A DNA stretch of 64,000 nucleotides from Candidatus Babeliales bacterium. GTDB taxonomy: Bacteria; Babelota; Babeliae; Babelales; RVW-14. A program made the position numbers and the translations under genes. Each line of letters begins with the position of its first letter. The first letter of the stretch is position 1. The notes beneath the pieces are model-generated. The model made no database searches. It saw nothing but the letters and a program-made list of their open reading frames with translations, and was not told the DNA's origin. Shown here in pieces: positions 532 to 60,234 of the stretch. The stretch lies in assembly GCA_041671765.1 (NCBI GenBank), contig JBAZAX010000002.1:3609-67608 (forward strand). Direction: 5' to 3'.

Positions 532-612
532 CTAATCCATGGATCCCAGCCTTCGCTTTGAAATAGCTTCGGCGGGCAGGCCTGGAACAAGTTCAGGATG
601 ACAGATCTCTAA
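532..612. repeat. GC-rich dispersed repeat copy (modules D-end + C + D-core)
   Basis: 'CTAATCCATGGATCC', 'CAGCCTTCGCTTTGAAATAGCTTCGGCGGGCAGGCC' and 'TGGAACAAGTTCAGGATGACAG'. Supplies the mvk C-terminal tail and stop codon. Confidence 0.8.
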
Positions 613-1680
613 TCGAAAGCTACTTTTGGCATCCACATCACTTTTAGTAGCATCAATCTGCGTTTTTATAACAAAATATCCACGATCGTCAAAAAACGCA
701 GCAATTTTTGACTGCAAGTCAATTTCAGGAGTAAGCGCAAAAACCAATCCCCCTCGACCGGTTCCGGTAAGTTTTGCACCCAACGCACCAAGTGCGAGAG
801 CTTTATCAACAATTACATCAAGCTCCGGACACGAAACTCCAATCGCTTGTAACAGACTATGATTTTTGTTCATGCACACGCCAAGTTTTTCTAAATTATT
901 ACGCTCAAGTGCATCAATACCTAGATTAAAAATACTTTTATATTTATTAAATATTTCTTTGGTTTTATCCGGTTTTTTTTCAATAAAATCACGCACAGCC
1001 AACACAACTTGTTTTGTATCTGTTTGCTTGCCACTATCGATAATTACAATCCTAATCGGGTTAGAAATTTGAATTTTTGAATAAGAAAAGGCGGGAGTAA
1101 ATAGACCCGCTCGTGCCTGTACGTGTATCGAACCACCGCCCAGCGGGCGACGGGCAGCGTTTTGGGAAAATTTTATTACACCCCCAAAAACTGCCGCTGT
1201 ATTATCAATGCCACTTGGAGTACCATGAACTGCAGATTCTCCAACGAATGCCGCTTGATTTATATTTTCGTCGCTCAAATTAAGTTTAAATTTAGAATTT
1301 ATTGCACGAGCAAAAGATGTTGCCGCTGCAGCACTTGCGCCAATGCCACCACACGTTACAGGTAATGTACCCGTAAACGTTACAGTAAAATTTTTTTCTT
1401 TTATTTCAAAAAAATTCAGAATATTCTCGCACATGCACCTGTATTCAGCTTTTTTGCTGGAAATAAAACCAGGGGATTTCGGCCTGTTGTCAATTAAAAC
1501 TAAATGGTTATAAGAAGTTTTTTGAAAGTTATCTGGAGAGTTATCTTGAATTTCAGCGTAAGTTTTTAAATTAAGCGATGCGACAAGTGCAGGTAACCCA
1601 TGCACAACAAAATGCTCACCCAGCAAAATGATTTTTCCATATCCAAAATTATGCGCTTTTTCCAAATTATCTAACTTCAT
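532..1680 (-). CDS. mvk: Mevalonate kinase (GHMP kinase family)
   Basis: N-terminal 'GKIILLGEHFVVHG' and GHMP ATP loop 'PVTCGGIGASAAAATS'. ATGA 4-nt overlap with the upstream DUF35 gene. The last ~25 codons and an internal ~23-codon patch are encoded by GC-rich repeat copies. Confidence 0.85.
   Translation of the reverse strand: MKLDNLEKAHNFGYGKIILLGEHFVVHGLPALVASLNLKTYAEIQDNSPDNFQKTSYNHLVLIDNRPKSPGFISSKKAEYRCMCENILNFFEIKEKNFTVTFTGTLPVTCGGIGASAAAATSFARAINSKFKLNLSDENINQAAFVGESAVHGTPSGIDNTAAVFGGVIKFSQNAARRPLGGGSIHVQARAGLFTPAFSYSKIQISNPIRIVIIDSGKQTDTKQVVLAVRDFIEKKPDKTKEIFNKYKSIFNLGIDALERNNLEKLGVCMNKNHSLLQAIGVSCPELDVIVDKALALGALGAKLTGTGRGGLVFALTPEIDLQSKIAAFFDDRGYFVIKTQIDATKSDVDAKSSFRLEICHPELVPGLPAEAISKRRLGSMD
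1091..1160. repeat. GC-rich dispersed repeat copy (B-like + E-like), in frame inside mvk
   Basis: 'AGACCCGCTCGTGCCTGTACGTGTATCGAACCACCGCCCAGCGGGCGACGGGCAGCG'. Compare 'GAACCCGCTCGTGGTGAGCTTGTCGAACCAT' at 17847-17877. Confidence 0.6.
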
Positions 1681-2075
1681 AAAGCAGGCACAAACTTCAA
1701 ACCATATTCAATAATACCGTTATTGCCATGCGAATAAAATTTTCTGAATGTCGACTGCACGCGCATTCCAATCTTTAAGTCACAAAGACTAACATCTGCA
1801 AGCGCAACTGTAATTTGTGGACCTTCGTCAAGCTGCACAATGCCAATACAATAAGTAGGCATATGTTTAAACTCCACACAAGAACTGGTAATATTGGTAA
1901 AAGAGATCAATTTACCAAATCCACTAAATTTGAAAGTTTTGAAATCTCTTGATCCACACGAACATAAAAAAGATTTTAAATAATAAGCTTTTTCACAAAC
2001 GATACATTTTGTTCCCTCAAGAGTATATCTCTTGGGGTACTGCCTCCATCCGGGAATTGAACTTGAACTAAACAC
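1677..2075 (-). CDS. DUF35-type zinc-ribbon/OB-fold protein (thiolase/HMG-CoA synthase partner-like)
   Basis: Cys cluster 'KCIVCEKAYYLKSFLCSCGS' followed by an OB-like C-terminal half. It sits directly downstream of thiolase and HMG-CoA synthase, as in archaeal gene sets. Confidence 0.7.
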   Translation of the reverse strand: MFSSSSIPGWRQYPKRYTLEGTKCIVCEKAYYLKSFLCSCGSRDFKTFKFSGFGKLISFTNITSSCVEFKHMPTYCIGIVQLDEGPQITVALADVSLCDLKIGMRVQSTFRKFYSHGNNGIIEYGLKFVPAL

Positions 2076-2084
2076 TACTTCTCC

Positions 2085-3252: not shown

Positions 3253-4320
3253 TCACTTCATATCCTGATATAATAAATCAATATTTCTTCGATATTCAGA
3301 GTATGTTAAATATTTTTTATAACTTAAATGACTTTTTAAATCATATCCTGGACCCACACCACTATTGATAAGCTTTTTTATATTCTGAGTAGTTTTTAAA
3401 ATAAAAGCATCACAACCACTCCCACTTCCATAACTAACTAACAGTATTTTTTTATCAGGTTGTGCTTGATCAAGAACGGAACACAAACCTAATAAAGAAC
3501 TTGCACTGTAAGTATTTCCAATATCCTGCACGACAAACCCTGGATTGATTTGTTCTGATTTAAAACCTAAACTTTTTGCAACCATTAGCGGAAGTTTGCC
3601 GTTAGGTTGATGAAAAACAACATAATCAAATGCTTCCGGACCACAGGAATGTTTTTCAAAAATTTTTTTCACAATTGTACTGACGTGTTTTAAATATGCC
3701 GGCTCCGCGGTAAAACGTCCTGCATGTTCCGGATATTTTTGCATACTGCGACGCCAAAAATCAGGGGTATCTGATGCAATTGAAATTGTATCCTCAATAT
3801 TTGCAATAATCTTAGAGTCATCTGTGCCAAGAATAAATGCAGCCGCACCGGCACCGGCACTATACTCAAGAATATCGCCAGGAGAGGCTTGAGCTGTATC
3901 AGTTCCTATTGCCATTCCGAATTTTGCAAAACCTGATTTTACCAGACCAAGACAAACGCCTAATGCCGCAGTACCTGCCTTGCATGCAAACTCCATATCT
4001 GCAGCCATGCAAAAACTATCTGCACCAATAGCTGCACCAACAATTGTTGCCGTTGGTTTTACTGCATATGGAGCACTTTCGCTACCAACGTAAATAGCAT
4101 TAATTTCTTTAGAATTTAAACCACACTGTAAAAGAGAATTTTTTGCGGCATTAACTGCAAAAGTTACGGAGTCCTCGTCAATACCGGGAACAGATTTTTC
4201 TTCAATCAAGAGGCTAGATTTAATTTGATGAAAATTTTGTTGCCAAGCCTTGGCTATCTCTTCAGCCTTTATTCGATAGACCGGAATATAAAAACCATAT
4301 CCGACAATTCCAACATTCAT
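3253..4320 (-). CDS. HMG-CoA synthase (short archaeal-like form)
   Basis: 'MNVGIVGYGFYIPVYRIKAEEIA', 'GSESAPYAVKP', 'FACKAGTAAL' and 'VFHQPNGKLP'. I place the start at ATG 4318-4320, because ORF-track codons 4321-4404 are read through a GC-rich repeat copy. Confidence 0.8.
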   Translation of the reverse strand: MNVGIVGYGFYIPVYRIKAEEIAKAWQQNFHQIKSSLLIEEKSVPGIDEDSVTFAVNAAKNSLLQCGLNSKEINAIYVGSESAPYAVKPTATIVGAAIGADSFCMAADMEFACKAGTAALGVCLGLVKSGFAKFGMAIGTDTAQASPGDILEYSAGAGAAAFILGTDDSKIIANIEDTISIASDTPDFWRRSMQKYPEHAGRFTAEPAYLKHVSTIVKKIFEKHSCGPEAFDYVVFHQPNGKLPLMVAKSLGFKSEQINPGFVVQDIGNTYSASSLLGLCSVLDQAQPDKKILLVSYGSGSGCDAFILKTTQNIKKLINSGVGPGYDLKSHLSYKKYLTYSEYRRNIDLLYQDMK

Positions 4321-4338
4321 TATCAACTCTTTTTGTAA

Positions 4339-4457
4339 TCCTGCCTGTCCGCCACGTGTCGGCCATAGCCACCTGGGCGACGGCTGATAGCTCTTCGCGC
4401 TCATGGTGAGCCAGTCGAACCACGGCTGGGAACTTGATTCAGGATCAATGGATTAAC
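4339..4457. repeat. GC-rich dispersed repeat copy (E + B-like + D)
   Basis: 'CCTGCCTGTCCGCCAC..GGGCGACGGC', 'GGTGAGCCAGTCGAACCAC' and 'TTGATTCAGGATCAATGGATTAAC', immediately upstream of the HMG-CoA synthase start. Confidence 0.75.
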
Positions 4458-4511: not shown

Positions 4512-5807
4512 TCATCTATTCAACACATAAGTCTCAAGTAATTTTTTCAGTGAAATTTTTTTCCAGATATTTAAACGCCCATTACAACACGGCAGTGCTA
4601 TGACAGCTCCATCAACAGAAAGTTCTCCTGAAGAAACTCCGGATTCAGGATCTAATTCTTGAATTTTAATATATTGGCCATGTACAAATTTCCATATTTT
4701 AGTTCTAGTATTTAAGCCCCCTGCCATTACCAAAGATTTATCATAGGAAATTTTAACAAATTCCGCCCAACTATTTGAGCTAAGCTTTTGCAACAGACTA
4801 TAGCTGCAATTAGTTGAGTTGAATTGCAATACATTTAATTCTTCGGATGCAACAACAATAATATTTTTATCTTCTGATAGAGCCGCAGTATGAAGAAATC
4901 TATCTTCACTTGTAATGGTAGCAGCTAGTGCATAATGTGGTATCTCTAGCATCTCACTTAACTCAATACGATGTGCTATATCTCTTAACTCTAAATCAGT
5001 TAATCCGATGCGATCCATTTTCCAGACATAGATACTTGGGGTGTAAATTAACGTGGAACAAAATATAAAAACCTCTTGATCTGCAGAAAATTTTAAATTT
5101 TTTGGATATAACTGATGACCATAAAATTCTCTTACCTGATTATATACATTCCCATCAAAATGCCAAAAATTTATTGTACGATCATCACACCCAATAACTA
5201 TAAGCTTCTGATCCTGCGAAATAGCAACAGATAACACAAATGAGTTACAGGCCAGGCGTTGAAAATAAGTATATTCTGTTCCATTAAATTTCCATATATT
5301 TACTGAATCATCATCCATGGATGACGTTATAATTAAATTTTTATCTGAGGAAATTAAAACAGAATCTATTTTGGCTCTCCCCTTCTTAAAAAAGTGCCCC
5401 CGCAGTGTTTGAAAATATTGGTAGCTCTCACCGTTCAGCCTCCATATTTTCACGCAAGAATCACCGCCACCGGTGACAATAAGTTCATTATCACTTGAAA
5501 TACAAACAGATTCAACATAACGATCTGCTTGTATTGTCTGCGATAACTCATAATATTGTTTGAGGAATAATGATAACACATCAAATAATTTCGCCTCAAT
5601 TTCTTGAATTAAATCGCCTGGTAATCTTGATTGTAATTCTCCAAGCCTAGCAACAGGATCAGATGATTTTAATATATCAGAAACTATTCTATCATATGAC
5701 AAAGCTAAAAGACTTGGGACAGAATTTGAATCCATTGCATCTGCATAATTATTTTTTGAGCAACAAATAATGATAAATAAAAAAAATATTTTTCTAATAT
5801 TCTTCAT
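4512..5807 (-). CDS. WD40-repeat protein with N-terminal signal-like segment (paralog 1)
   Basis: Hydrophobic N-terminus 'IFFLFIIICCS'. Repeated WD-like blades 'VTGGGDSCVKIWRLNG', 'DDSVNIWKFNG', 'DRTINFWHFDG' and 'TKIWKF'. Shares long near-identical strings with the adjacent ORF. Confidence 0.75.
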   Translation of the reverse strand: MKNIRKIFFLFIIICCSKNNYADAMDSNSVPSLLALSYDRIVSDILKSSDPVARLGELQSRLPGDLIQEIEAKLFDVLSLFLKQYYELSQTIQADRYVESVCISSDNELIVTGGGDSCVKIWRLNGESYQYFQTLRGHFFKKGRAKIDSVLISSDKNLIITSSMDDDSVNIWKFNGTEYTYFQRLACNSFVLSVAISQDQKLIVIGCDDRTINFWHFDGNVYNQVREFYGHQLYPKNLKFSADQEVFIFCSTLIYTPSIYVWKMDRIGLTDLELRDIAHRIELSEMLEIPHYALAATITSEDRFLHTAALSEDKNIIVVASEELNVLQFNSTNCSYSLLQKLSSNSWAEFVKISYDKSLVMAGGLNTRTKIWKFVHGQYIKIQELDPESGVSSGELSVDGAVIALPCCNGRLNIWKKISLKKLLETYVLNR

Positions 5808-5852
5808 AAGATTCCAAGCATTATTAATTATTTAAATGATTCTTTTTATCAT

Positions 5853-7181
5853 CTATTCAACAGCAAGAATCTGGCATTTCTTTGCATAAATTTCAAGTAA
5901 TTTTTCAAGTGATATTCTTTTCCAAATATTGATACACCCGTTGTCACCGGTTAAAACAACAACATGCCCATTCACAGAAAGATCTCCCTTAGAAACTCCA
6001 AATTGGCAATCTATTTCTTGAATTTTAACATATTTATCTTGTTGTCTTATAAATTTCCATATCTCAATTTTATCATTTGGCCTACCCGCCATTATTAAAG
6101 ATTTATCATAGGAAACTTTAACAAACTGAGCCCACCCTCCTGTGCTAAGTTGTTGTAATAGGCTACAACTATAATCAGCTCCATTGAGTCTCAATACATT
6201 CAAATCTTCGGATGCAACAACAATAATATCTCTATCTTCGGACAAATCCGCGGCATTGAGATGACTACACCAATTTACAATTGTATTAGCTAATCGATAT
6301 TGCGGAACTCCGATCGGCTCGATCTCGTCCAATTTCAAAATTCGAATACTAGGAGTCCCTCCTAACATAGAACAACATGTAACGGTTCTCTTATCTGAAG
6401 AAAATTTTAGATTTTCCGGATATACATTAGGATCAGAAAAATTTTGCCCCTCATTATATTTATTTCCATCAAAATACCAAAACCGTATTGTATTATCATC
6501 GCATCCAACAATGATAATTTGCTGATCTTGTGAGATAGAGATAGATAATACCAAAGAATTACAGGCTAACTGTTGAAAATATGTGTATTCGGATCCATTA
6601 AATTTCCAAATATTTACTGAATCATCATCAATAGATCCAGTAATAATTAAATTATTGTCTAAAGAAATTAATACGGAATCTACTCGATCCATATTTGGCA
6701 CAGAAAAAAAATCCTGCTCCGAAGAAATTAATGCATAATCTTTTTTTGACATGCCCCTCTTAGCAAAGTGTCCTGGCAGTGTTTGAAAATATTCATATCC
6801 CTTCCCATTAAATCGCCATATTTTTACGGAAGAATCATTCCCTCCTGTTACAATAAGTTGGTTGTCCATTGAAATACAAACGGATGCTATGGCGTTATGA
6901 GATTGAATTGTCTGAAATAAATCATATTGTTGCTTGCAGTCAAACGAAAGTATGTTAAATAATTCATTCTCAACTTCTTGTATTAACTCAACTGGCAAAC
7001 TTGATTGTGCTTTTCTAAACATATCAACAGGATTATGTGATCTTAATATATCAGAAACTATTTTATCACATGCTATCTTTGCAAGGCACGGGGTCAACTT
7101 TGAACTCATGGCACCAGCGTAATAATTTTCTGAACAACAAATAACAAACAATAATAAAAATAAATAACTAAATTTTTTCAT
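5853..7181 (-). CDS. WD40-repeat protein with N-terminal signal-like segment (paralog 2)
   Basis: Same architecture as 4512-5807: 'VTGGNDSSVKIWRFNG', 'DDSVNIWKFNG' and 'DNTIRFWYFDG'. Tandem duplicate with an extra insert after blade 1. Confidence 0.75.
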   Translation of the reverse strand: MKKFSYLFLLLFVICCSENYYAGAMSSKLTPCLAKIACDKIVSDILRSHNPVDMFRKAQSSLPVELIQEVENELFNILSFDCKQQYDLFQTIQSHNAIASVCISMDNQLIVTGGNDSSVKIWRFNGKGYEYFQTLPGHFAKRGMSKKDYALISSEQDFFSVPNMDRVDSVLISLDNNLIITGSIDDDSVNIWKFNGSEYTYFQQLACNSLVLSISISQDQQIIIVGCDDNTIRFWYFDGNKYNEGQNFSDPNVYPENLKFSSDKRTVTCCSMLGGTPSIRILKLDEIEPIGVPQYRLANTIVNWCSHLNAADLSEDRDIIVVASEDLNVLRLNGADYSCSLLQQLSTGGWAQFVKVSYDKSLIMAGRPNDKIEIWKFIRQQDKYVKIQEIDCQFGVSKGDLSVNGHVVVLTGDNGCINIWKRISLEKLLEIYAKKCQILAVE

Positions 7182-17226: not shown

Positions 17227-18756
17227 ATGGGAGTAGTAATGATCGAATTAATTAAAAAAGAAAAAAATTTTTTGCTACTTACGTTTTTTTTATCTCTTGC
17301 AATCAAAGTAATTTTCTTTCTAATTTTTCTCAAAAATAACTCCTGTTTATTAATGTTTGATTCAGGGCAGTATCACAAAGTCGCACTCAATATTTTATCG
17401 TGGACAGGTCAGACAAATTTTTACCGTATGCCAGGCTATCCGGTATTTTTAGCCGCTTGCTACAAAATTTTCGGGGTGCATCCCATTGCGGCTCTTATAA
17501 TGCAAATTATACTTGGCTCTCTAATTCCATTATTAGTATTTGCTCTTGCACTAGTATTGTTTGATAAATCAACATTTAACAGCCAGATAAAAACGGCTAA
17601 ACTTGCGAGTTTAGTTGCCTGTTTTGATCTTGGTTATATAATTTTCCCCGGACTAATCATGTCCGAAATATTATTTACTATGTTTTTCACGCTATTTCTA
17701 ATTTTATTTCTGTATAATTACACGCCATTTTTTTGCAAAAGCCCTCTTCTAAAAACATTAAGACAGCCCCTTCGACAGGCTCCCAGCCTTCGCTCAGAAT
17801 TAGCTTCGGCGGGCAGGCAGGGTGAGCGCGACGAGCACACTAAAGAACCCGCTCGTGGTGAGCTTGTCGAACCATTTCAACGGGTTCTTACATTTCCAAT
17901 TTCCAGATTGTTTTTGGCAGGAATAGCTCTCGGAATAGCTTGTCTGATCAGACCTGTTGGACATGGCCTGTTCTTAACATCAATTTTTATGCTGATGGTT
18001 TCAAAAGATAAATTTTTTGTAAAAATAAAATCTATAGCACTGTTTAGTACTGGGCTTGCATTCACATTGGGTATATGGATATTCAGAAATTTTCTTCTAA
18101 CCGGCTACATTTTTATGCACACACTTTCAGGCCCACATTTTTTAAATCATTCAGCAGTAAGGCTTTGCATGATGGATGAAAAAATAACTTATGAACAGGC
18201 ACAAAAAAAGGTTTACGCTGAACTTAAAAATCTTGAACCAGCAAAAACAAATGTACTGGGCAAGCCGTTGCAAGAAATCGAGCACTGCCAATTAGCGGAA
18301 AAGCTCGCAATATCTTACATGCTTAAGAACCCCGTACTTACAGTTCAACATTTTATATCAAACATGTTAAAAACAACATTTGGACTTTATAGCTCTGAGT
18401 TACTTGTAATAGACTCCGGCGGGCAACTCCCTGAATACAGTAATAATCGAAGTATTAAAAGCATTTTTAAACGTTTTTTGCTTCCTGACGTAAATAATAA
18501 ATTTATAATTTGGGTAATTTATTTTGAAATAATATTTTTTTTATTTATTTTACTTGGCCTAGCCATATTTATATTTATATCACCAATTGATCGCGGAAAA
18601 ATATGTACACTCATCAAAACACTGCCTTTTATCTGCTGCTTAATATTTTTGACTCTTTCATGCGGTTATGCGAGATTAAGATTGCCAATCGAATCATTTT
18701 TAATTATTTTAGCGATTAAAGAATGGCAACTTTTATTTTCTAAAAAAGGGGAGTAA
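17227..18756 (+). CDS. GT-C-like polytopic membrane glycosyltransferase, paralog 2 (carries in-frame GC-rich repeat)
   Basis: 'FYRMPGYPVFLAACYKIFG', 'LIRPVGHGL', 'FRNFLLTGYIFMHTL' and 'CGYARLRLP' parallel ORF 12768-14336. Codons at 17761-17890 come from a composite repeat. Alternative start ATG at 17239. Confidence 0.65.
   Translation: MGVVMIELIKKEKNFLLLTFFLSLAIKVIFFLIFLKNNSCLLMFDSGQYHKVALNILSWTGQTNFYRMPGYPVFLAACYKIFGVHPIAALIMQIILGSLIPLLVFALALVLFDKSTFNSQIKTAKLASLVACFDLGYIIFPGLIMSEILFTMFFTLFLILFLYNYTPFFCKSPLLKTLRQPLRQAPSLRSELASAGRQGERDEHTKEPARGELVEPFQRVLTFPISRLFLAGIALGIACLIRPVGHGLFLTSIFMLMVSKDKFFVKIKSIALFSTGLAFTLGIWIFRNFLLTGYIFMHTLSGPHFLNHSAVRLCMMDEKITYEQAQKKVYAELKNLEPAKTNVLGKPLQEIEHCQLAEKLAISYMLKNPVLTVQHFISNMLKTTFGLYSSELLVIDSGGQLPEYSNNRSIKSIFKRFLLPDVNNKFIIWVIYFEIIFFLFILLGLAIFIFISPIDRGKICTLIKTLPFICCLIFLTLSCGYARLRLPIESFLIILAIKEWQLLFSKKGE
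17761..17890. repeat. Composite GC-rich repeat (module A interrupted by module C, then hairpin module B), in frame in GT-C paralog 2
   Basis: 'CCTTCGACAGGCTC' + 'CCAGCCTTCGCTCAGAATTAGCTTCGGCGGGCAGGC' + 'AGGGTGAGCGCGA' ... 'AAGAACCCGCTCGTGGTGAGCTTGTCGAACCATTTCAACGGGTTCTT'. Confidence 0.85.
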
Positions 18757-33573: not shown

Positions 33574-34014
33574 TTATCTGTTTTTTTTATGAATAGATCT
33601 CTTCTGCAACTTAAGAACCCGTTGAAATGGTTCGACAAGCTCACCACGAGCGGGTTCTTCAAAATGTTCATCGCGCTCACCCTGAGCTTGTCGAAGGGTC
33701 TGCTTGCTTGCATTTAGAAGAGATCTAGTAACTTCTTGTGTAACACTTATGCCAAGCCTTACCAATACACTGGATAGATCAAAATTTTGTGTATCAATTT
33801 TTATCATTTTGTTCCTCGATGTTGCGCCACGCAATATTTTAAAACAATCAGTAGAGATCCCAAGTGCTTTACTTAGTAGCTTTACCAATTCCTCATTTGC
33901 CTTCCCACCTTCTGGCTTACTTTTTAATCTGCACTTAATAATTCCGGATTTATCTTGCTCAAAGCCCTGCTGTTTGGAGTTTGGAACAACTTTTAACTCA
34001 ATAACTACAGACAT
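33574..34014 (-). CDS. DUF167 (YggU-like) protein with repeat-encoded C-terminal extension
   Basis: 'LKVVPNSK...KCRLKSKPEGGKANEELVKLLSKALG' is the DUF167 core. The last ~45 codons ('LRQAQGERDEHFEEPARGELVEPFQRVL') are read from a GC-rich repeat. Confidence 0.7.
   Translation of the reverse strand: MSVVIELKVVPNSKQQGFEQDKSGIIKCRLKSKPEGGKANEELVKLLSKALGISTDCFKILRGATSRNKMIKIDTQNFDLSSVLVRLGISVTQEVTRSLLNASKQTLRQAQGERDEHFEEPARGELVEPFQRVLKLQKRSIHKKNR
33611..33705. repeat. GC-rich repeat (modules B + A, opposite orientation to 17761-17890)
   Basis: 'AAGAACCCGTTGAAATGGTTCGACAAGCTCACCACGAGCGGGTTCTT' has 9-bp inverted arms. It is followed by 'TCGCGCTCACCCTGAGCTTGTCGAAGGG'. Confidence 0.85.
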
Positions 34015-34144: not shown

Positions 34145-34221
34145 GCGCCCATAGCTCAATTGGATAGAGCGTCAGACTACGGATCTGAAGGTTAGAGGTT
34201 CGACTCCTCTTGGGCGCACCA
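34145..34221 (+). tRNA. tRNA-Arg (anticodon ACG), CCA encoded
   Basis: Hand-folded cloverleaf: acceptor GCGCCCA/TGGGCGC, D arm GCTC..GAGC, anticodon stem TCAGA/TCTGA with loop CTACGGA, and T arm AGAGG-TTCGACT-CCTCT. Confidence 0.9.
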
Positions 34222-34235
34222 TAAAAATATTGCTT

Positions 34236-34327
34236 GGAGAGATGGCTGAGTGGCTGAAAGCACTTGCCTGCTAAGCAAGTATCTGGAGAAATCCGGGTCG
34301 AGGGTTCGAATCCCTCTCTCTCCACCA
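34236..34327 (+). tRNA. tRNA-Ser (anticodon GCT), long variable arm, CCA encoded
   Basis: Acceptor GGAGAGA/TCTCTCC, anticodon stem CTTGC/GCAAG with loop CTGCTAA, long variable arm, and T arm GAGGG-TTCGAAT-CCCTC. Confidence 0.9.
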
Positions 34328-34374
34328 GTCTTCGCAGCTATGCAGCTTCGCCTGGCTGACGCCATTAACGGCCA
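34328..34374. repeat. Module C-like GC-rich copy abutting tRNA-Ser(GCT) 3' end
   Basis: 'GTCTTCGCAGCTATGCAGCTTCGCCTGGCTGACGCC'. Compare 'GCCTTCGCTTTGAAATAGCTTCGGCGGGCAGGCC' at 551-583. Confidence 0.55.
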
Positions 34375-34426
34375 AATACTTTAATCTTTGAATTTAGTTC
34401 TTTAAAATATCAATTTATTATTCTCT

Positions 34427-34518
34427 GGAGAGGTGGCAGAGTGGTTGAATGCGACGGTCTTGAAAACCGTTATTCCGGGAGACTGGAATCGTGGGTTCGA
34501 ATCCCACCCTCTCCACCA
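34427..34518 (+). tRNA. tRNA-Ser (anticodon TGA), long variable arm, CCA encoded
   Basis: Acceptor GGAGAGG/CCTCTCC, anticodon stem ACGGT/ACCGT with loop CTTGAAA, long variable arm, and T loop TTCGAAT. Confidence 0.9.
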
Positions 34519-34552
34519 GCATATGCCCTATGTGGCTACGACTGGCAGGCCA
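34519..34552. repeat. Module C-like GC-rich copy abutting tRNA-Ser(TGA) 3' end
   Basis: 'TGGCTACGACTGGCAGGCC'. Compare 'TAGCTTCGGCGGGCAGGCC'. Confidence 0.5.
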
Positions 34553-34640
34553 TTTCTTTTAATGTTTAAACTTAAATAACGCCAACTCGATAATTAGTGA
34601 AAGAGCTGTGCAAATCTAAAACGACTTTCAATTGTAGATT

Positions 34641-34675
34641 TGTCATCCTGAATTTATTTCAGGATCCATGGATTA
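34641..34675. repeat. Module D copy
   Basis: 'TGTCATCCTGAATTTATTTCAGGATCCATGGATTAG' has an internal hairpin (CCTGAA/TTCAGG). Its end is identical to 532-546 in reverse complement. Confidence 0.8.
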
Positions 34676-34718
34676 GTTTTTCCTATTATCAATTTACAAA
34701 AATTTTGAATTAATTTAT

Positions 34719-34752
34719 CCATAGATGCTGAAACTAGTTCAGCATGACAAAG
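34719..34752. repeat. Module D copy, inverted relative to 34641-34675
   Basis: 'CCATAGATGCTGAAACTAGTTCAGCATGACAAAG'. Its reverse complement aligns with the copy 45 bp upstream. Confidence 0.7.
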
Positions 34753-34881
34753 TGTTGCCAAAGCTCTGCCTGATTCACTGCTATATTAATTTTAGAGCTA
34801 TCGAGTTGCTGTTAATATAAATATTTTATGTTTACTCGCTTAAATCAACCAATTTTCCTGAAAAAATACGCTATATCCAAA

Positions 34882-36906
34882 TCACTGGCTCGAAACAATA
34901 AACACTCTGCTATCAAATTGATCAAGATCAATCTGACTCAAAAGTTTGTGTATGCTAGAAAACGTTTGTGATTTTAGAAATATCTGTCTGATTTCAACAT
35001 TCTGGATTTTAGAAATCACAGGTTGAGCAGGTCCAAGTATCTGAATTTTTAAATCTTGAGAGTCGTTAATTTTATTCAAAATATCTGCAATAGAATTGGC
35101 ATCTCTATCAAGTTGAATATCAGAATTATTTTTTATCTCTATCTGAACGAGTCGGCCAAATGGTGGATAACAAATTTCTTTACGTAAAACGGCTTCGTCC
35201 TCACAAAATTTAAGATAATCAATCTCATTCAAATAATTGAAAATTTTATGATCTTTCATCATCTGAATTATTACAGTACTGGGAAGCTGCCCACGCCCTG
35301 CCCGACCTGCAACCTGAATAAGTTGCTGAATTGAAGTTTCAGCCGCGTTATAAATGGGCATGTGTAGGTTCAAATCTGCCCACAGCACCCCAACAAGTGT
35401 AACACGCGGGAAATGATACCCCTTGGTAATAGTCTGAGTTCCAATAAGAATATCTATTTTCCCCTGCTCAAAATCTTCCACCGTTTGATACCATGACCTT
35501 TTTTGGCTTGTGGTATCAAGATCTGCTCGCGCAATAATGGCAGTGGGAAAAAGTTCTTGAAATATTTTAACAGCTTGCTGCGTCCCCACGCCCTTTTTTA
35601 AAAAATTCTTCTGATCAGACTTACAATCAGGGCATGCTGCCGGTAATGGCTTTTGAAAATCACAGTAGTGACATCGTAGCGTTTCCTGACCATAGTGCGA
35701 ATGCAATGTTAAACTCACGGAACAGTTTGAACACTGAAAAACATGCCCACAGTCTTTGCATTGCACAAAAAAGCTGTACCCTCGTCTATTCAGATAAATA
35801 ATTGCCTGCTCTTTGCGGCTTAGGCAATCCCTAATCGCAGTTTCAAGCTCTCGAGACACCCAAAAATTACTTCGTCTTTGGTCTTTTTGCGATTTTAAAA
35901 TTACTTTTTTAATCTCCGGAAAACTACCCGCAAATCTCTTTGTTATATTAAAAAGCTTCCAGCCTTTTGTTTGCACATTATGCAAAGAACTAAGTGATGG
36001 GGTGGCTGATCCAAGAAGAATTGGAATTTTATAGATACTAGCACGCCAAATTGCAATCTCTTTACTATTCAAGCGTGGATGTTTTTTTTCTAAAAAACCA
36101 TGCTCGTGTTCTTCGTCTATAATTATCAAGCCCAAATTATTTACTGGCAACATTATTGGCATATGTACGCCAATAATTAATGCAGGCTCGTTTTTTAGTA
36201 ATCCATTCCACAAAGCCCGCCGATCTGCAGGCTTACTGGCCGAATGAAAACCGATGACTTTCGAATTGGGAAGTTTTTTTTGAAAAATACGCTCAAATTG
36301 CAAACTAAGTGAAACTTCGGGAAGAAGCAGCAAAACGCTTTTGTTATTATTAATACACTCTTGAATTAAATTACTATAAACTTCGGTTTTGCCTGATCCG
36401 GTAACCCCATGGATTAATGTGGGTTTATAATCAGGATTTTTTACAAACGGTTTTAGGTAATCAACCACAAGCTGTTGCTCATCAGTTAATTGCACGTTAT
36501 GAGGAACAATTGTTTGGATAGATCCTGAATCAAGTTCAGGATGACAAAGAGGCGCATCCTGCCTGCCCGCCACAGCCTTGGCGACGGCGGGTGTTTTTTT
36601 GTCTGCGAAAAAGCCTCTAATTCGTTGGTAAAAATGCAAACTGGGAACAAAATAAAATTTTGAAATTTTTTCGATAAATTCCGCGTATTTTATATCATCA
36701 GGAAATTGCTGCAATCCCAAAATCTCTCTTACATTGAAATCAGAGTAAAAATTTGAATCAATCTGGACAACATAAGCCAGATGCTGAGATGTCTTGAGGG
36801 GAACTTTAATAAGTGCCCCAACTCCAATTTTGCCTTCAAGCTCTTCAGGAATTTTGTATGTTAACGGTCGCTGAAATCCATTTAAGAGAAGAACGGTTGC
36901 AAACAT
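34882..36906 (-). CDS. priA: Primosomal protein N' (replication restart helicase PriA)
   Basis: Walker A 'HGVTGSGKTEVY', 'IIDEEHE', Cys-rich insert 'CKDCGHVFQCSNCSVSLTLH...CHYCD' and 'QVAGRAGRG'. Carries an in-frame GC-rich repeat at 36521-36594. Confidence 0.9.
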   Translation of the reverse strand: MFATVLLLNGFQRPLTYKIPEELEGKIGVGALIKVPLKTSQHLAYVVQIDSNFYSDFNVREILGLQQFPDDIKYAEFIEKISKFYFVPSLHFYQRIRGFFADKKTPAVAKAVAGRQDAPLCHPELDSGSIQTIVPHNVQLTDEQQLVVDYLKPFVKNPDYKPTLIHGVTGSGKTEVYSNLIQECINNNKSVLLLLPEVSLSLQFERIFQKKLPNSKVIGFHSASKPADRRALWNGLLKNEPALIIGVHMPIMLPVNNLGLIIIDEEHEHGFLEKKHPRLNSKEIAIWRASIYKIPILLGSATPSLSSLHNVQTKGWKLFNITKRFAGSFPEIKKVILKSQKDQRRSNFWVSRELETAIRDCLSRKEQAIIYLNRRGYSFFVQCKDCGHVFQCSNCSVSLTLHSHYGQETLRCHYCDFQKPLPAACPDCKSDQKNFLKKGVGTQQAVKIFQELFPTAIIARADLDTTSQKRSWYQTVEDFEQGKIDILIGTQTITKGYHFPRVTLVGVLWADLNLHMPIYNAAETSIQQLIQVAGRAGRGQLPSTVIIQMMKDHKIFNYLNEIDYLKFCEDEAVLRKEICYPPFGRLVQIEIKNNSDIQLDRDANSIADILNKINDSQDLKIQILGPAQPVISKIQNVEIRQIFLKSQTFSSIHKLLSQIDLDQFDSRVFIVSSQ
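36521..36594. repeat. GC-rich repeat (modules D + E), in frame inside priA
   Basis: 'GATCCTGAATCAAGTTCAGGATGACAAAG' + 'CATCCTGCCTGCCCGCCACAGCCTTGGCGACGGCGGG'. Translated as 'AVAKAVAGRQDAPLCHPELDSGS'. Confidence 0.8.
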
Positions 36907-40277: not shown

Positions 40278-40302
40278 CCCCAAAGGAAGTAAGGAGAATA
40301 GC

Positions 40303-40452
40303 ATGGCAGTCAAGAAAAAAGCAAAAAAGGCAGCTAAGAAGGTTGTCAAAAAAGTTGCCAAGAAAAAGGTAGCTAAGAAGGCAGCTAAGAAGGTTGTCAA
40401 AAAAGTTGCCAAAAAGGCAGCTAAAAAAGTCAGCATGAAACTTGTCAAGTAA
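40303..40452 (+). CDS. Lysine/alanine-rich histone-H1-like small basic protein
   Basis: ATG 40303 is preceded by 'AAGGAG' (40291-40296). 49 aa: 'MAVKKKAKKAAKKVVKKVAKKKVAKKAAKKVVKKVAKKAAKKVSMKLVK'. Followed by a hairpin and T-run terminator. Confidence 0.65.
   Translation: MAVKKKAKKAAKKVVKKVAKKKVAKKAAKKVVKKVAKKAAKKVSMKLVK
40330..40412. repeat. 51-bp tandem duplication inside the histone-like gene
   Basis: 'GCAGCTAAGAAGGTTGTCAAAAAAGTTGCCAA' occurs at 40330-40361 and again at 40381-40412. Confidence 0.85.
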
Positions 40453-58633: not shown

Positions 58634-58664
58634 GAAGTCACAAAATATTTATAATAAAATTCGG

Positions 58665-58698
58665 TGGCTGGTGAACTTAACGCCAGCCATTTTTTTTT
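58665..58698 (+). terminator. Rho-independent terminator (or attenuator) between the KH gene and trmD
   Basis: Stem TGGCTGGTG/CGCCAGCCA with loop AACTTAA, followed by T9. Confidence 0.65.
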
Positions 58699-58716
58699 GG
58701 AAGCCATGATTAAATC

Positions 58717-60234
58717 ATGATTAAGATATCAATTATCACCGTTTTTCCTGAATTACATGAAAATTTCATTAACACGAGCTTGATTCAACGTGCCGTTAAA
58801 CAAGAAATTATTCAATTCAATCTCGTGCGTTTTTCAGACATGTGTCAACCCAAAGAACGAATTGACGAACCAACCGTTGGACATGGCGCCGGAATGATAA
58901 TTAAGCCTGAAGTTATCCAAAAGGCAATTGATCAGTGCCAAGAAAAGTGGGGTTCCGGATTTAAAATCTTTTTTTCGCCTCAGGGACAAAGACTTGATCA
59001 ACGCAAACTAAGCAATATTTATAAAAAATTGATATCCCGGGACCAAAATCAACAAGATCAAACTGGTAAATCTAACCAAGGACAAGCCATCGTATCCGCT
59101 CCTATAAGCACCACTGAGCCTTTTCCAGAATCAGACGCGTCACCTATCGGTGATGGTTCGACAAGCTCACCACGAGCGCGCCAGCTTGATGGCACTCTTC
59201 CTGAGCCTATCGAAGGATGCGAGCTTCAGAAGAGATATACTGAATCAGATCTTCATTTAATACTTATATGTTCTCGATACGAAGGCATCGACGAACGCGT
59301 AGAAAGTTTTTATGCAGACATGACAGTATCAATCGGCGACTATGTATTAATGGGCGGAGACCTTCCAGCACAGGTCTTCTTGGAAGGACTTTTGCGATTG
59401 ATTCCAAATGTTGTTGGAAAAACAGCTTCTGTAGAGAACGAATCGTTCCAGGGAGCTTTTTTTGACCACCCTGAATATGGGCTGCCAGTTGAATGGAATC
59501 AACTGAAAATTCCGGATGTATTGCGTTCAGGGAATCACAAGCAAATAGCAATATGGCGAAAAGAACAGGCTGTTAAAAAAACAATTTTAAATAGATTTGA
59601 TTGGATACAAGAAAGTCACCCGGATGAAACGGATCTTGAACTTTGCAGAAAATTTATTCCTAACCATTATGTCGTAATAATGCACTCCCAAGTTATTGTT
59701 GGAGACGGGCATAAAGTTGGGCACACATCTGTGGCATCAATAGACATTCACGACATCGCCCGCAGTTGTAAAACATATGGCATCAAGAATTTTTTTATTG
59801 TTACGCAGCTTGAAGATCAGTTCAAGATCGTAAACACATTTTTTGATTTTTGGCATTCCAAAAAAGGCAAAGATTACAACTTAAGCCGCTACAACGCGAT
59901 CGAATCCGTGATTTTAACAAAATCATTCGAGTCAGTACGGGAACAAATTAAACAAAAAGAGAATCTGGATCCTATCATAATTACAACATCTGCAAAATCT
60001 CATGGAAACGGCGTAAAAATTGATTACTTCAGCCAAGGACTTGTTTGGCAAGAGAATCGACCGGTTTTGATTGTTTTTGGCACAGGACAGGGGCTCAGCG
60101 ATGAAATAATGGATCAAAGTAATTTTATCCTCACCCCGGTTCGTGGCCTTACCAGTTACAACCATCTTTCTGTAAGATCTGCTGCTGCAGTTATTCTTGA
60201 CAGATGGCTTGGATTAAATTCAAAAGTTGAGTAA
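58717..60234 (+). CDS. trmD: tRNA (guanine37-N1)-methyltransferase TrmD fused to a second SPOUT-like (TM1570/Methyltrn_RNA_4-like) domain
   Basis: TrmD part: 'ISIITVFPELHENF', 'VGHGAGMIIKPE' and 'LICSRYEGIDERV'. C-terminal ~200 aa: 'VASIDIHDIARSCKTYGIKNFFIV', 'VFGTGQGLSDE' and 'YNHLSVRSAAAVILDRW'. 505 aa in total. Confidence 0.8.
   Translation: MIKISIITVFPELHENFINTSLIQRAVKQEIIQFNLVRFSDMCQPKERIDEPTVGHGAGMIIKPEVIQKAIDQCQEKWGSGFKIFFSPQGQRLDQRKLSNIYKKLISRDQNQQDQTGKSNQGQAIVSAPISTTEPFPESDASPIGDGSTSSPRARQLDGTLPEPIEGCELQKRYTESDLHLILICSRYEGIDERVESFYADMTVSIGDYVLMGGDLPAQVFLEGLLRLIPNVVGKTASVENESFQGAFFDHPEYGLPVEWNQLKIPDVLRSGNHKQIAIWRKEQAVKKTILNRFDWIQESHPDETDLELCRKFIPNHYVVIMHSQVIVGDGHKVGHTSVASIDIHDIARSCKTYGIKNFFIVTQLEDQFKIVNTFFDFWHSKKGKDYNLSRYNAIESVILTKSFESVREQIKQKENLDPIIITTSAKSHGNGVKIDYFSQGLVWQENRPVLIVFGTGQGLSDEIMDQSNFILTPVRGLTSYNHLSVRSAAAVILDRWLGLNSKVE
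59135..59232. repeat. GC-rich repeat (module B core and related sequence), in frame inside trmD
   Basis: 'GGTTCGACAAGCTCACCACGAGCG' is identical to 33639-33662. It is followed by 'GAGCCTATCGAAGGATGCGAGCTTCAG'. Confidence 0.75.

What the first reader, a model, noticed from the sequence alone, without database searches (positions are those of the whole stretch)
532..59232. Dispersed family of GC-rich modular palindromic repeats, most copies translated in frame (RPE/MITE-like)
Short (35-130 bp) GC-rich patches stand out against the AT-rich background and share recombinable modules:
- A: 'CCTTCGACA(A/G)GCTCAGGGTGAGCGCGA'.
- B: a hairpin, 'AAGAACCCG' + ~29 nt ('CTCGTGGTGAGCTTGTCGAACCATTTCAA') + 'CGGGTTCTT'.
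- C: 'CCAGCCTTCGCT'-N7-'AGCTTCGGCGGGCAGGC'.
- D: 'TGTCATCCTGAA'-N6-8-'TTCAGGATCCATGGATTAG'.
- E: 'CCTGCC(TG)CCCGCCAC..GGCGACGGC'.

I found 11 copies, in both orientations:
- 532-612
- 1091-1160
- 4339-4457
- 17761-17890
- 33611-33705
- 34328-34374
- 34519-34552
- 34641-34675
- 34719-34752
- 36521-36594
- 59135-59232

Six are read through as protein: mvk (tail and internal), a GT-C paralog, the DUF167 tail, priA and trmD. None of these breaks the reading frame. The known precedent is the Rickettsia palindromic elements, which insert in frame into protein genes of an AT-rich intracellular bacterium. From memory, the peptides produced ('PFDKLRVS', 'VVSLSNH', 'ARGELVEPF', 'CHPELVSGS', 'ASAGRQ') also resemble strings seen in many metagenomic hypothetical proteins. 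I cannot verify that here.
Basis: partly seen in the sequence, partly recalled or inferred. Interest (0 to 1): 0.8.

Follow-up and report, generated by a model that had tools for sequence, protein, structure and literature searches.

The report
Cosmopolitan palindromic repeats translated inside genes
An AT-rich intracellular-type bacterium (Dependentiae/Babeliales) carries small GC-rich hairpin repeats, with cores also found in many other bacterial phyla, that have recently landed inside essential genes without breaking the reading frame, so they are presumably translated as extra protein loops and tails.

Summary
Eight of the 11 listed patches share significant sequence. One (1091-1160) is a decayed, weak member. 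Two (34328-34374, 34519-34552) are not repeats.

The units are short hairpins that sit next to or inside one another:
- A/B half-sites built around the loop TGAGCTTGTCGAA.
- A 36-nt unit C and a 30-nt unit E.
- Hairpin D.

All six in-gene copies keep the reading frame. All are missing from orthologues, including relatives 87-97% identical in DNA. They lie in loops, linkers or C-terminal tails of Mvk, a GT-C protein, DUF167, PriA and TrmD.

The source is a Babeliales (Dependentiae) genome. The family is not specific to that lineage:
- The 20-nt core is exact in at least 120 loci from about ten phyla.
- It also occurs on Moraxella, Sphingobium and Comamonas plasmids and in viral contigs.
- Outside Dependentiae it is almost always intergenic.
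- Its loop is conserved while its closing stem covaries, and two thirds of copies form inverted doublets.

No target-site duplication and no linked transposase were found.

Best reading: selfish REP/REPIN-like hairpin DNA that behaves like the Rickettsia palindromic elements. It is probably moved in trans by a hairpin-recognising single-strand (HUH-type) enzyme, which remains unidentified.

The parts
532..649 (-). D-type element that forms the last ~30 codons and the stop codon of mevalonate kinase (..SSFRLEICHPELVPGLPAEAISKRRLGSMD*). The D hairpin is split by a nested C unit.
   Evidence: 581-649 matches the reverse complement of 34595-34663 (69 nt, 71%). The tail is absent from distant Mvk orthologues. 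The 93%-identical P0242 has D without C.
546..581 (+). C unit, 36 nt (CCAGCC..GGCGGGCAGGC), inserted at GGATC^CTGAA inside the D stem.
   Evidence: 92% identical over all 36 nt to 17783-17818. An intact D for comparison lies at 34639-34676.
1091..1160 (-). GC-rich (66%) in-frame insertion in mevalonate kinase (NAARRPLGGGSIHVQARAGL). Probably a decayed B/E composite; weak member.
   Evidence: Absent in P0243 and P0245 (74-79% identity) and in all distant orthologues. A related insert is present in P0244. No BLAST similarity to the other copies.
4338..4457 (.). Intergenic composite upstream of HMG-CoA synthase: E-like (4338-4385), B-like (4392-4422) and D-like (4430-4455) parts.
   Evidence: BLAST matches to B (88-89%), D (85-95%) and E (94%). 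The likely true start MNVGIVGYG lies downstream.
17744..17895 (+). Composite inside a GT-C-like membrane protein. Order: outer arm; A half-site (17764-17782 and 17819-17831) interrupted by a C unit (17783-17818); spacer; B hairpin (17843-17889). Translated as LRQAPSLRSELASAGRQGERDEHTKEPARGELVEPFQRVL.
   Evidence: 73 nt at 92% to the 33.6 kb copy. About 36-45 residues are absent from all homologues, including P0361 at 72% identity. An identical sequence occurs in an independent JGI contig, L189.
33587..33743 (-). Complete A+B doublet (B 33613-33659, A 33671-33698) with outer inverted repeats AGATCTCTTCT/AGAAGAGATCT (33716-33726 and 33595-33605). It replaces the normal stop region of DUF167/YggU and extends the protein from 96 to 146 aa.
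   Evidence: 157 nt in the window against 7-36 nt in L127, L128 and L130. Folds into a long hairpin, z = -3.1.
34595..34775 (.). Intergenic inverted pair of D-type arms (left 34595-34678, right 34712-34775); a MITE-like palindrome of ~180 nt.
   Evidence: Window 34571-34809 has no counterpart at this site in L128/L129. A 94%-identical arm sits at a different locus in L129 (21717-21784). L188 carries the same pair. The 8-bp hairpins fold with z = -2.8 and -3.4.
36518..36593 (-). D hairpin (36518-36549) plus E unit (36551-36593) in the PriA linker between the 3'-DNA-binding domain and the helicase domain. Translated as TPAVAKAVAGRQDAPLCHPELDSGS.
   Evidence: L127 (96% DNA identity) has D but lacks a clean 30-nt block, window ~36561-36590 (CCGCCGTCGCCAAGGCTGTGGCGGGCAGGC). 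L128 and L130 carry A-type modules at the same site. Distant orthologues have none.
59135..59232 (-). B core (59153-59178) plus a diverged A half (59196-59220), in reverse orientation inside the TrmD domain of a TrmD-PF09936 fusion. Translated as DASPIGDGSTSSPRARQLDGTLPEPIEGCELQK.
   Evidence: 26 nt at 100% to 17850-17875. Absent from all 14 aligned orthologues. Window 59053-59238 (186 nt) corresponds to 75 unrelated nt in L126, which is 97% identical over the flanking DNA. Residues 100-179 replace 6 residues of solved TrmD 3ky7. The model has pLDDT 24-33 over 109-177.

Best explanation
**What the patches are.** They are copies of small, non-coding, palindromic selfish DNA units that work like REP/REPIN elements:
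- A/B half-sites: a 13-nt loop TGAGCTTGTCGAA closed by a short covarying stem, usually paired as an inverted doublet.
- C (36 nt) and E (30 nt): units that share the 3' end GGCGGGCAGGC.
- D: the hairpin ATCCTGAA-N5-TTCAGGAT.

The units insert beside or inside one another. This builds mosaics that are often framed by lineage-specific outer inverted repeats.

**Where they come from.** Their cores are shared with many phyla and occur on plasmids. They have been gained or lost in this Babeliales lineage since it diverged from relatives 87-97% identical in DNA.

**Why they sit in genes.** In this genome many insertions fall in genes. The copies that persist keep the frame, carry no stop codon, encode hydrophilic peptides, and lie in loops, linkers or C-terminal tails. 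They are then simply translated, as with the Rickettsia palindromic elements.

**Shown here.**
- Repeat identity.
- Nesting of units.
- Lineage-specific presence.
- Retention of the reading frame.
- Cross-phylum distribution.
- Stem covariation.

**Inferred.**
- The elements are retained in mRNA and protein.
- They are mobilised in trans by a hairpin-recognising single-strand HUH/Y1 enzyme (RAYT/IS200-like 'peel and paste'). I hold this mechanistic step at about 35-40%.
For: **Repeats**
- Repeat identity and statistics.

**Insertions absent from orthologues**
- TrmD.
- PriA.
- DUF167.
- Mvk.
- GT-C protein.

**Turnover between close relatives**
- A 30-nt E indel separates the window from L127 (96% identical).
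- Different modules occupy the same PriA site in L128 and L130.
- A D-type arm sits at different loci in the window and in L129.
- The syntenic stretches held from relatives carry 0-2 module hits each. The whole 64-kb window has module hits at 8 sites.

**More in-frame copies in the lineage**
- Three further AT-rich contigs carry the doublet inside ORFs of 413-710 codons, in the same frame.

**Foreign, cosmopolitan core**
- The exact 20-mer occurs in at least 120 loci across many phyla.
- It occurs on 28 plasmids, always in unannotated intergenic DNA.
- The D hairpin is exact in 30 viral contigs of 28-67% GC.

**Hairpin units**
- 90 of 135 copies have an inverted partner within 150 nt.
- In 84 unselected partner half-sites the closing stem covaries: 50 cells changed on both sides against 18 in shuffles, 0 of 500 shuffles as high, and slid controls are much lower.
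- Intact copies fold well, z = -2.3 to -3.4.

**HUH-like traits**
- C is a discrete 36-nt unit with identical ends at two sites, both after GGMTC and without duplication.
- No transposase is linked in cis in 120 loci or in the window.
- A conserved loop with a variable stem is the usual look of an HUH nick site (own knowledge).

**Disordered host site**
- The AlphaFold model has pLDDT 24-33 over TrmD residues 109-177. The model is weak overall.

**Precedent**
- REPs inserted in frame in genes, in flexible loops, are reported in PMC6006769 and PMC3733652.
Against: - No mobilising enzyme was identified.
- The only RAYT found in 1.57 Mb of held DNA (Crenothrix, L027) is itself split in its HUH motif by a copy. 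It has different, GTAG-tagged hairpins upstream, so it may be a victim rather than the partner.
- The canonical GT[AG]G/CGTC foot tag of REPs is not shared by both half-sites.
- The junction rule (after GGMTC, no duplication) rests on 2-3 events, and the exact breakpoints are ambiguous by 1-2 nt.
- At trmD and DUF167 the filled and empty sites differ by replacement, not by a clean insertion.
- Nested or decayed copies do not fold better than shuffles.
- Translation of the inserts is inferred from open frames only.
- Cross-phylum identity of a 20-mer is unusual for REPINs, which are described as vertically inherited (abstract listed).
Confidence: 0.7

Rival explanations
1. The elements are classical TIR-MITEs: deletion derivatives of an insertion sequence, moved by a DDE transposase that recognises the outer inverted repeats. 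The GC-rich hairpins are internal cargo.
For: - Outer inverted repeats flank several copies: AGATCTCTTCT/AGAAGAGATCT at 33.6 kb, shared left arms at 17.7 kb and 59.2 kb, and the ~180-nt inverted pair at 34595-34775.
- Other lineages embed the doublet in their own ~15-25-nt outer arms.
Against: - It is the inner core that is conserved across phyla, while the termini differ between lineages. This is the reverse of what transposase-bound TIRs show.
- No target-site duplication was seen at the junctions examined.
- No IS or transposase was found in the window or in the syntenic stretches held from relatives.
- The 30- and 36-nt units move on their own.
Confidence: 0.15
2. The hairpins are functional host elements, such as RNA stability, terminator or sRNA modules, or binding sites for a conserved factor. 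They are kept by selection rather than by selfish spread.
For: - A conserved 13-nt loop with a covarying stem across phyla.
- Mostly intergenic outside Dependentiae: 38 of 40 copies in loci below 50% GC.
- A weak match to Rfam RF02901, Aggregatibacter sRNA 41, whose consensus contains the same core.
Against: - Presence or absence varies between near-identical relatives, and copies sit at non-homologous sites.
- Units nest inside each other, and one copy disrupts a RAYT gene.
- No conserved gene neighbour.
- No Rfam family reaches its threshold: 30 against 97 bits.
- Copies inside essential genes have no evident regulatory logic.
Confidence: 0.08
3. The segments are not translated. They are removed from the mRNA or skipped by the ribosome, as in the GC-rich 'byp' elements of yeast mitochondria or T4 gene 60.
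For: GC-rich hairpins in AT-rich genes resemble byp elements (own knowledge). No expression data are available here.
Against: - All six coding copies are in frame and free of stops, and the two clean nested units C and E are multiples of three, so no bypass is needed.
- The doublet is seen in one hydrophilic frame five times out of five, although three frames are open. This fits selection on the encoded peptide.
- No intron or ribozyme family matches.
Confidence: 0.03
4. The patches are ancestral variable linkers or low-complexity coding sequence, or they are assembly chimeras.
For: The host sites are hypervariable linkers even without repeats.
Against: - Identical 26-73-nt DNA is shared between unrelated genes in both orientations.
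- The patches are absent from orthologues.
- The same sequence was recovered in independent assemblies: L131, L132 and L189 are 99.8-100% identical to the window.
Confidence: 0.02

Closest known systems
Rickettsia palindromic elements (RPE)
   Same: - Short palindromic repeats in an AT-rich, host-dependent bacterium.
- Inserted in frame in housekeeping genes, at sites that tolerate extra peptide.
- Absent from orthologues.
- No linked transposase.
   Different: - Different phylum.
- Units are smaller (26-47 nt) and modular or nested.
- The cores are shared with many free-living phyla and with plasmids, whereas RPEs are described in Rickettsiales (own knowledge).
- Sequence homology to RPE families was not tested.
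REP / REPIN / BIME elements with RAYT (TnpA-REP) transposases
   Same: - Imperfect palindromes of 20-40 nt.
- Inverted doublets.
- Mosaic clusters.
- No target-site duplication.
- Mostly extragenic in most hosts.
- In-frame REP insertions in genes are documented (PMC6006769, PMC3733652).
   Different: - No shared GT[AG]G or CGTC foot tag.
- The loop rather than the stem is conserved.
- The same core occurs in about ten phyla, whereas REPINs are described as vertically inherited and specific to their RAYT.
- No cognate RAYT was shown. The one nearby RAYT is disrupted by a copy.
Coxiella burnetii QMITE2 and its REP (PMC5896051)
   Same: - A small palindromic element in an intracellular bacterium.
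- Occurs as a short REP-like version and a longer version with terminal inverted repeats.
- Overlaps gene ends.
- Found in several other proteobacterial genera.
   Different: - QMITE2 has 7-11-nt direct repeats and a GTAG REP, and lies mainly in 3' UTRs.
Rfam RF02901 AaHKsRNA41 (Aggregatibacter sRNA 41)
   Same: Its consensus contains CUGAGCUUGcCGAAG ... UUCGgCAAGcUCAg, the same palindromic core.
   Different: - The match scores 30 bits against a gathering score of 97.
- The family is defined as one sRNA locus in one genus, not as a dispersed repeat.
- The window's 33.56-34.8 kb stretch, which holds the A+B doublet, gave no match to it.
Mobile GC clusters and 'byp' elements of yeast mitochondria (own knowledge)
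   Same: GC-rich palindromic mini-elements that invade AT-rich genomes, including coding regions.
   Different: - Organellar.
- Byps break the frame and are bypassed by the ribosome. Here the frames stay open.

Membership tests
Rickettsia palindromic elements (RPE) | Dispersed short palindromic repeat with hairpin potential. | tested here: met
   Eight related copies in 64 kb. Intact copies fold with z = -2.3 to -3.4.
Rickettsia palindromic elements (RPE) | Inserted in frame in protein genes; the host ORF stays open; the segment is absent from orthologues. | tested here: met
Rickettsia palindromic elements (RPE) | Sequence homology to RPE-1 to RPE-8 consensus sequences. | not tested
   No RPE sequences were available in the tools. 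The host is Dependentiae, not Rickettsiales.
REP/REPIN-RAYT | Imperfect palindrome of 20-40 nt, often as inverted doublets. | tested here: met
   90 of 135 copies have an inverted partner within 150 nt. Stem covariation: 0 of 500 shuffles as high.
REP/REPIN-RAYT | Conserved GT[AG]G (or CGTC) tetranucleotide at the foot of the hairpin. | tested here: not met
   B half-sites read CGTTC-GTGG-TGAGC, but partner halves read GCCC, GTCC or GCAC. The D, C and E units show no such tag.
REP/REPIN-RAYT | Cognate RAYT gene flanked by the same repeats (REPtron). | tested here: inconclusive
   - One RAYT was found (NCBIfam NF047646, 116 bits) in Crenothrix locus L027.
- It has one copy inside its HUH motif and one copy at its 3' end.
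- It has different, GTAG-tagged hairpins upstream.
- No RAYT was found in the window or in the Dependentiae stretches held. The whole genome was not available.
TIR-MITE | Terminal inverted repeats conserved among copies. | tested here: inconclusive
   Outer arms are shared by three window copies, but they differ between lineages while the core is constant.
TIR-MITE | Target-site duplication. | tested here: not met
   None at the C-into-A, C-into-D, E-in-priA or DUF167 junctions. The number of events is small.
TIR-MITE | Parent IS with matching ends in the genome. | not testable with these tools
   No transposase in the window.
Rfam RF02901 AaHKsRNA41 | Score at or above the gathering threshold. 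| tested here: not met
   30 bits against 97 on a canonical copy. No hit in window 33560-34800.

The most novel reading that the evidence does not exclude
The A/B core (a conserved 13-nt loop with a covarying stem) and its companion hairpins form a pan-bacterial class of mini-elements. They cross phylum boundaries on plasmids and phages and are propagated by a mechanism not yet described. Two possibilities are a widely shared HUH-type or host replication/repair activity that nicks the conserved loop, or insertion targeted to hairpin apices. They would not be propagated by lineage-specific RAYTs or IS transposases. In gene-dense intracellular genomes such as Dependentiae they would become a regular source of new protein loops and tails.
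Probability: 0.2. Interest if true: 0.85.

Novelty: new variant of a known kind. Interest (0 to 1): 0.6.

Why it matters
**A second case of in-frame palindromic repeats.** If confirmed, this is an independent example, in a different phylum, of the 'selfish DNA inside protein genes' phenomenon known from Rickettsia. Essential enzymes (PriA, TrmD, mevalonate kinase) tolerate recent peptide insertions. The sites mark natural permissive loops and show how new linkers and tails arise.

**A sequence shared across phyla.** A 20-nt hairpin core is identical in Dependentiae, Chloroflexota, Proteobacteria, Acidobacteriota, Nitrospirota, Patescibacteria and on plasmids. This raises a directly testable question: what enzyme or host factor keeps a non-coding 13-nt loop constant across phyla, and how do such tiny non-autonomous elements move between them?

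**A practical point for annotation.** These repeats explain recurrent peptide strings (LRQAQGER, VRPELVEG-like, CHPELVSGS) in 'hypothetical proteins' from metagenomes. They can mislead gene callers, as with the spurious N-terminal extension of HMG-CoA synthase in this window.

Tried and rejected
- **Known RNA families.** Rfam at gathering thresholds found only tRNAs. Permissive scans gave only a sub-threshold match to AaHKsRNA41 plus chance miRNA hits.
- **Literature.** Full-text searches for the core DNA and for the peptide strings found nothing relevant. Dependentiae with 'palindromic', and the Babela genome paper, mention no such repeats.
- **MITEAba12 of Moraxellaceae.** Rejected. It is AT-rich, has stops in all six frames, makes 9-bp duplications, and has a single copy in M. 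osloensis.
- **Conserved neighbouring gene.** All-against-all clustering of 3147 ORFs from the loci held at that stage (L001-L122) found only generic families and no transposase.
- **Local hairpin around every B core.** Only ~22 of 127 copies have a flanking stem of at least 7 bp. The general structure is the inverted doublet plus a 4-5-bp closing stem.
- **Module C in viral contigs.** Most 17-mer hits were a conserved gene of high-GC phages, not the repeat. Only 3 of 25 showed a C-like context.
- **E. coli genomes.** No match.
- **An apparent difference next to the 4.3 kb copy in L131.** It was a scaffold gap of Ns.
- **RAYT as proven mobiliser.** Rejected as unproven. The single RAYT found is interrupted by the element and has its own GTAG hairpins. 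The recalled E. coli RayT and IS200 sequences served only as a lead. The hit itself was verified with NCBIfam.
- **Exact look-up of the window's PriA.** Nothing on record.

Full report
**1. What is in the window**

The window is 35.5% GC.

Mechanical repeat finding and a sensitive self-BLAST confirm that most patches share sequence:

| Pair | Length | Identity | Note |
|---|---|---|---|
| 17818-17890 vs 33612-33684 | 73 nt | 92% | inverted, E 8e-21 |
| 541-581 vs 17778-17818 | 41 nt | 90% | |
| 17850-17875 vs 59153-59178 | 26 nt | 100% | inverted |
| 34639-34669 vs 36518-36548 | 31 nt | 87% | |
| 581-649 vs 34595-34663 | 69 nt | 71% | |

The 13-mer TGAGCTTGTCGAA with up to 2 mismatches occurs 10 times against 1.5 expected. 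GCCTGCCCGCC with up to 1 mismatch occurs 5 times against 0.11 expected.

Eight of the eleven listed copies are therefore solid members.
- The patch at 1091-1160 has no BLAST similarity to the rest. It can only be read by eye as a decayed B/E copy.
- The patches at 34328-34374 and 34519-34552 are the 3' trailers of two tRNA-Ser genes. They show no similarity to any module and no fold, and the block containing them is conserved in relatives. They are not members.

**2. Anatomy of the units**

- **A and B** are two versions of one half-site. Both have the same 13-nt centre, flanked by complementary triplets (CCC..GGG in A, TGG..CCA in B), and then by CGCTCG/CGAGCG-type arms. A and B lie in opposite orientation, so together they form a long hairpin (33.6 kb copy, z = -3.1).
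- **C** is a discrete 36-nt unit, CCAGCC...GGCGGGCAGGC. It occurs twice with the same ends. Once it sits inside the A half-site at 17783-17818. Once it sits inside the stem of a D hairpin at 546-581. Both insertions follow GGMTC, and neither shows a duplication.
- **E** is a 30-nt unit with the same 3' end. It is the only difference in the PriA linker between the window and a 96%-identical relative.
- **D** is an 8-bp hairpin with a 5-nt loop (z = -2.3 to -3.4). It is part of a longer arm of ~85 nt. Two such arms in inverted orientation make a ~180-nt palindrome at 34595-34775.
- **Outer arms.** Three A/B copies share AT-rich outer arms (..ATCTCTTCTRAA..). The 33.6 kb copy has 11-nt terminal inverted repeats.

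The 'recombinable modules' are therefore nested insertions of small hairpin units.

**3. Host genes and the insertion test**

Pfam assigns the hosts as follows:
- GHMP kinase (Mvk).
- DUF167.
- PriA.
- A TrmD-PF09936 fusion.
- The GT-C-like membrane protein gave no Pfam hit of its own. Its paralogue at 12768-14333 matches PMT_2.

The organism is a Babeliales/Dependentiae bacterium. The Mvk protein is 100% identical to one named 'Candidatus Babeliales bacterium'. The best hits of TrmD and PriA are from TM6/Dependentiae.

Syntenic DNA from relatives was fetched:

| Locus | DNA identity to window |
|---|---|
| L126 | 97% |
| L127 | 96% |
| L130 | ~90% |
| L128 / L129 | 87% |

Results by gene:
- **TrmD.** The repeat peptide (residues 140-173) is absent from all 14 aligned orthologues. 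Window 59053-59238 (186 nt) stands opposite 75 unrelated nt in L126. The whole segment 100-179 replaces six residues of solved TrmD (3ky7). It is predicted to be unstructured, with pLDDT 24-33, in a model of modest overall quality.
- **PriA.** The linker between the 3'-binding domain and the helicase carries a different set of units in each relative:
  - E plus D in the window.
  - D alone in L127.
  - An A-type unit (LRQAQDER) in L128.
  - The same unit in another frame (PSTSSGRA) in L130.
  - Nothing in more distant orthologues.
- **DUF167.** The protein is 146 aa in the window and 96 aa in L127 and L130. In the window, 157 nt replace 7-36 nt.
- **Mvk.** The internal insert and the tail are missing from orthologues at 74-79% identity and below. 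Other lineages carry the same units at other positions of the protein.
- **GT-C protein.** Nearly all of 150 homologues align in two stretches that break at the insert. The 72%-identical P0361 lacks ~36 residues there.

All six coding copies are in frame and free of stops. Independent assemblies (L131, L132, L189) reproduce the repeat-bearing sequence at 99.8-100% identity, so an assembly artefact is excluded.

**4. Recurrence in the lineage and recent activity**

A 37-nt lineage-specific version of the B hairpin found three further AT-rich metagenome contigs. Each has the doublet deep inside an ORF of 413-710 codons. One of these ORFs is recognisable by eye as a cofactor-independent phosphoglycerate mutase. 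All are read in the same hydrophilic frame (LRQAQGER...EEPARGELVEPFQRV), although three of the six frames are open.

The syntenic stretches held from relatives carry 0-2 module hits each, whereas the whole 64-kb window has hits at 8 sites. A D-type arm sits at different loci in the window and in L129. The elements have therefore been gained or lost since these genomes diverged (87-97% DNA identity).

**5. The family is cosmopolitan**

- **Genomes.** The hits are in Methylococcales, Burkholderiales/Nitrosomonadales, Moraxella isolates, Legionella, Dehalococcoidia/Chloroflexota, Acidobacteriota, Nitrospirae, Planctomycetes, Cyanobacteria, Thermodesulfobacteriota, Patescibacteria and another Dependentiae.
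- **Architecture elsewhere.** The usual form is CCGTTCG-TGG-TGAGCTTGTCGAA-CCA, then a spacer, then CCC-TTCGACAAGCTCA-GGG-CGAACGG. It often lies inside longer inverted arms that differ between lineages.
- **Doublets.** 90 of 135 copies have an inverted partner within 150 nt.
- **Covariation.** In 84 partner half-sites that were not selected by the search, the stem closing the 13-nt loop covaries (CG, UA, GC, AU). 81% of cells are paired against 69% in shuffles. 50 cells changed on both sides against 18. None of 500 shuffles was as high, and slid controls were far lower.
- **Plasmids, viruses and E. coli.** The doublet is on 28 plasmids of Moraxella, Sphingobium, Comamonas and Sphingomonas, always in unannotated intergenic DNA. 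It is absent from E. coli. The D hairpin is exact in 30 viral contigs of 28-67% GC.
- **Position relative to genes.** Outside Dependentiae the copies are almost always intergenic. Only 2 of 40 copies in loci below 50% GC are deep inside an ORF. Frequent in-frame residence in genes is the special feature of this lineage.

**6. How it probably works**

The following features fit single-strand, hairpin-guided HUH/Y1 transposition (REP/REPIN-RAYT, IS200/IS605) better than DDE-type MITE transposition:
- Defined unit ends.
- Nesting into other hairpins.
- No duplications.
- Inverted doublets.
- A conserved loop with a covarying stem.
- No transposase in cis.

The enzyme is not identified. A screen of 1.57 Mb of held DNA found one RAYT, in Crenothrix sp. 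D3 (L027), confirmed by NCBIfam NF047646 (116 bits against a cut-off of 80).
- One doublet with outer arms sits inside its HUH motif and introduces a stop codon.
- A second doublet sits at its 3' end.
- Different, GTAG-tagged hairpins lie upstream.

This is suggestive of an affinity between the element and REP/RAYT loci. It is equally compatible with the RAYT being a victim. I therefore hold the class-level explanation (selfish palindromic repeats, tolerated in frame) at ~0.7 and the HUH mechanism at ~0.35-0.4.

**7. Comparison with known systems**

- **RPE.** In behaviour the elements match the Rickettsia palindromic elements. Homology was not tested.
- **REP/REPIN/BIME.** They share palindromy, doublets, mosaics and documented in-frame insertions (PMC6006769, PMC3733652). 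They lack the GT[AG]G/CGTC tag. Unlike REPINs, their core is shared across phyla.
- **TIR-MITE.** No target-site duplication was found at the junctions examined.
- **Rfam.** Only an Aggregatibacter sRNA family contains the core, and it scores below threshold.
- **Literature.** No paper in the held library mentions the core DNA or its peptides.

I rate the finding a new variant of a known kind.

**8. Verdict**

The added value is threefold:
- The exact unit structure and the nesting.
- Proof of lineage-specific, recent, in-frame insertions in five genes.
- The finding that the cores are pan-bacterial, with a structure-constrained hairpin.

Interest is 0.6. In-frame palindromic repeats are a known phenomenon. 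The cross-phylum conservation of a non-coding 13-nt loop and its unknown mobiliser are surprising and testable.

Noticed in passing
L027 4398-5225 (Crenothrix sp. D3, MBQZ01000029.1): A REP-associated tyrosine transposase gene (NCBIfam NF047646) is split inside its HUH motif (..LLPDH | IHCIWTLP..) by a copy of the A/B doublet with outer arms. A second doublet follows at its 3' end. Different, GTAG/CTAC-tagged hairpins lie upstream at 4296-4335 and 4386-4420.
   Followed up: partly
window 40308-40451: A 12-nt tandem repeat encodes a lysine/alanine-rich peptide (KKAAKKVVKK...) in a small ORF (40207-40452) just after the M16 peptidase gene. It looks like a small histone-H1-like basic protein. Relatives annotate a 53-aa ORF there.
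   Followed up: no
window 58717-60234: TrmD is fused to a second SAM-dependent RNA methyltransferase domain (PF09936). The fusion is conserved in all 120 listed hits, those with a source name being mostly Dependentiae/Babeliales.
   Followed up: partly
window 34551-34880 vs L127 5656-8027: Where the window has 330 nt holding the D-type inverted pair, the 96%-identical relative has 2.4 kb with a 703-aa ORF that has no Pfam hit. L128 and L129 have neither. Two assemblies of one species (L128, L129) also diverge immediately after a D-type arm (L129 21717-21784). These elements therefore sit at rearrangement breakpoints.
   Followed up: partly
L190 (Ga0172381_10037158), ORF of 413 codons: In what looks like a cofactor-independent phosphoglycerate mutase, the A half (LRQAQGER) and the B half (PARGELVEPFQRV) lie ~50 codons apart with host sequence between them. 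The half-sites can evidently insert separately.
   Followed up: no
window 3253-4404: The longest ORF of HMG-CoA synthase starts inside the repeat (msaksyqpsprwlwptrggqag...). The likely true start is MNVGIVGYG, ~27 codons downstream. The repeat creates a spurious N-terminal extension. One public annotation aa and another, across a scaffold gap, 318 aa.
   Followed up: partly
window 4512-7181: Two tandem WD40 beta-propeller paralogues are 72-78% identical in DNA (repeat families D1-D3, D5, D10, D11). These eukaryote-like repeat proteins sit next to the mevalonate-pathway cluster (HMG-CoA reductase, HMGS-thiolase-OB trio, Mvk).
   Followed up: no
window 12768-14336, 17227-18756, 22265-23593: Three GT-C/PMT_2-like membrane glycosyltransferase-type genes lie in one glycan cluster. 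The first two are 35% identical paralogues. Only the second carries the repeat.
   Followed up: partly
L127 (GCA_000315315.2, AMWB02149967.1): The closest relative on the priA side comes from an assembly whose contig numbering (about 150,000) suggests a very large, fragmented project. It may be a eukaryote or host assembly that contains a Dependentiae symbiont.
   Followed up: no
L001, L011, L115, L048, L102 (flanks of the core copies): Other GC-rich hairpins recur next to the A/B copies in unrelated genomes, for example CCCCCTTTTGCAAAGGGGG and GTGACTTTCTTTTGCTTCGCCAAAAGAAAGTCAC. Several cosmopolitan hairpin families may cluster together.
   Followed up: no
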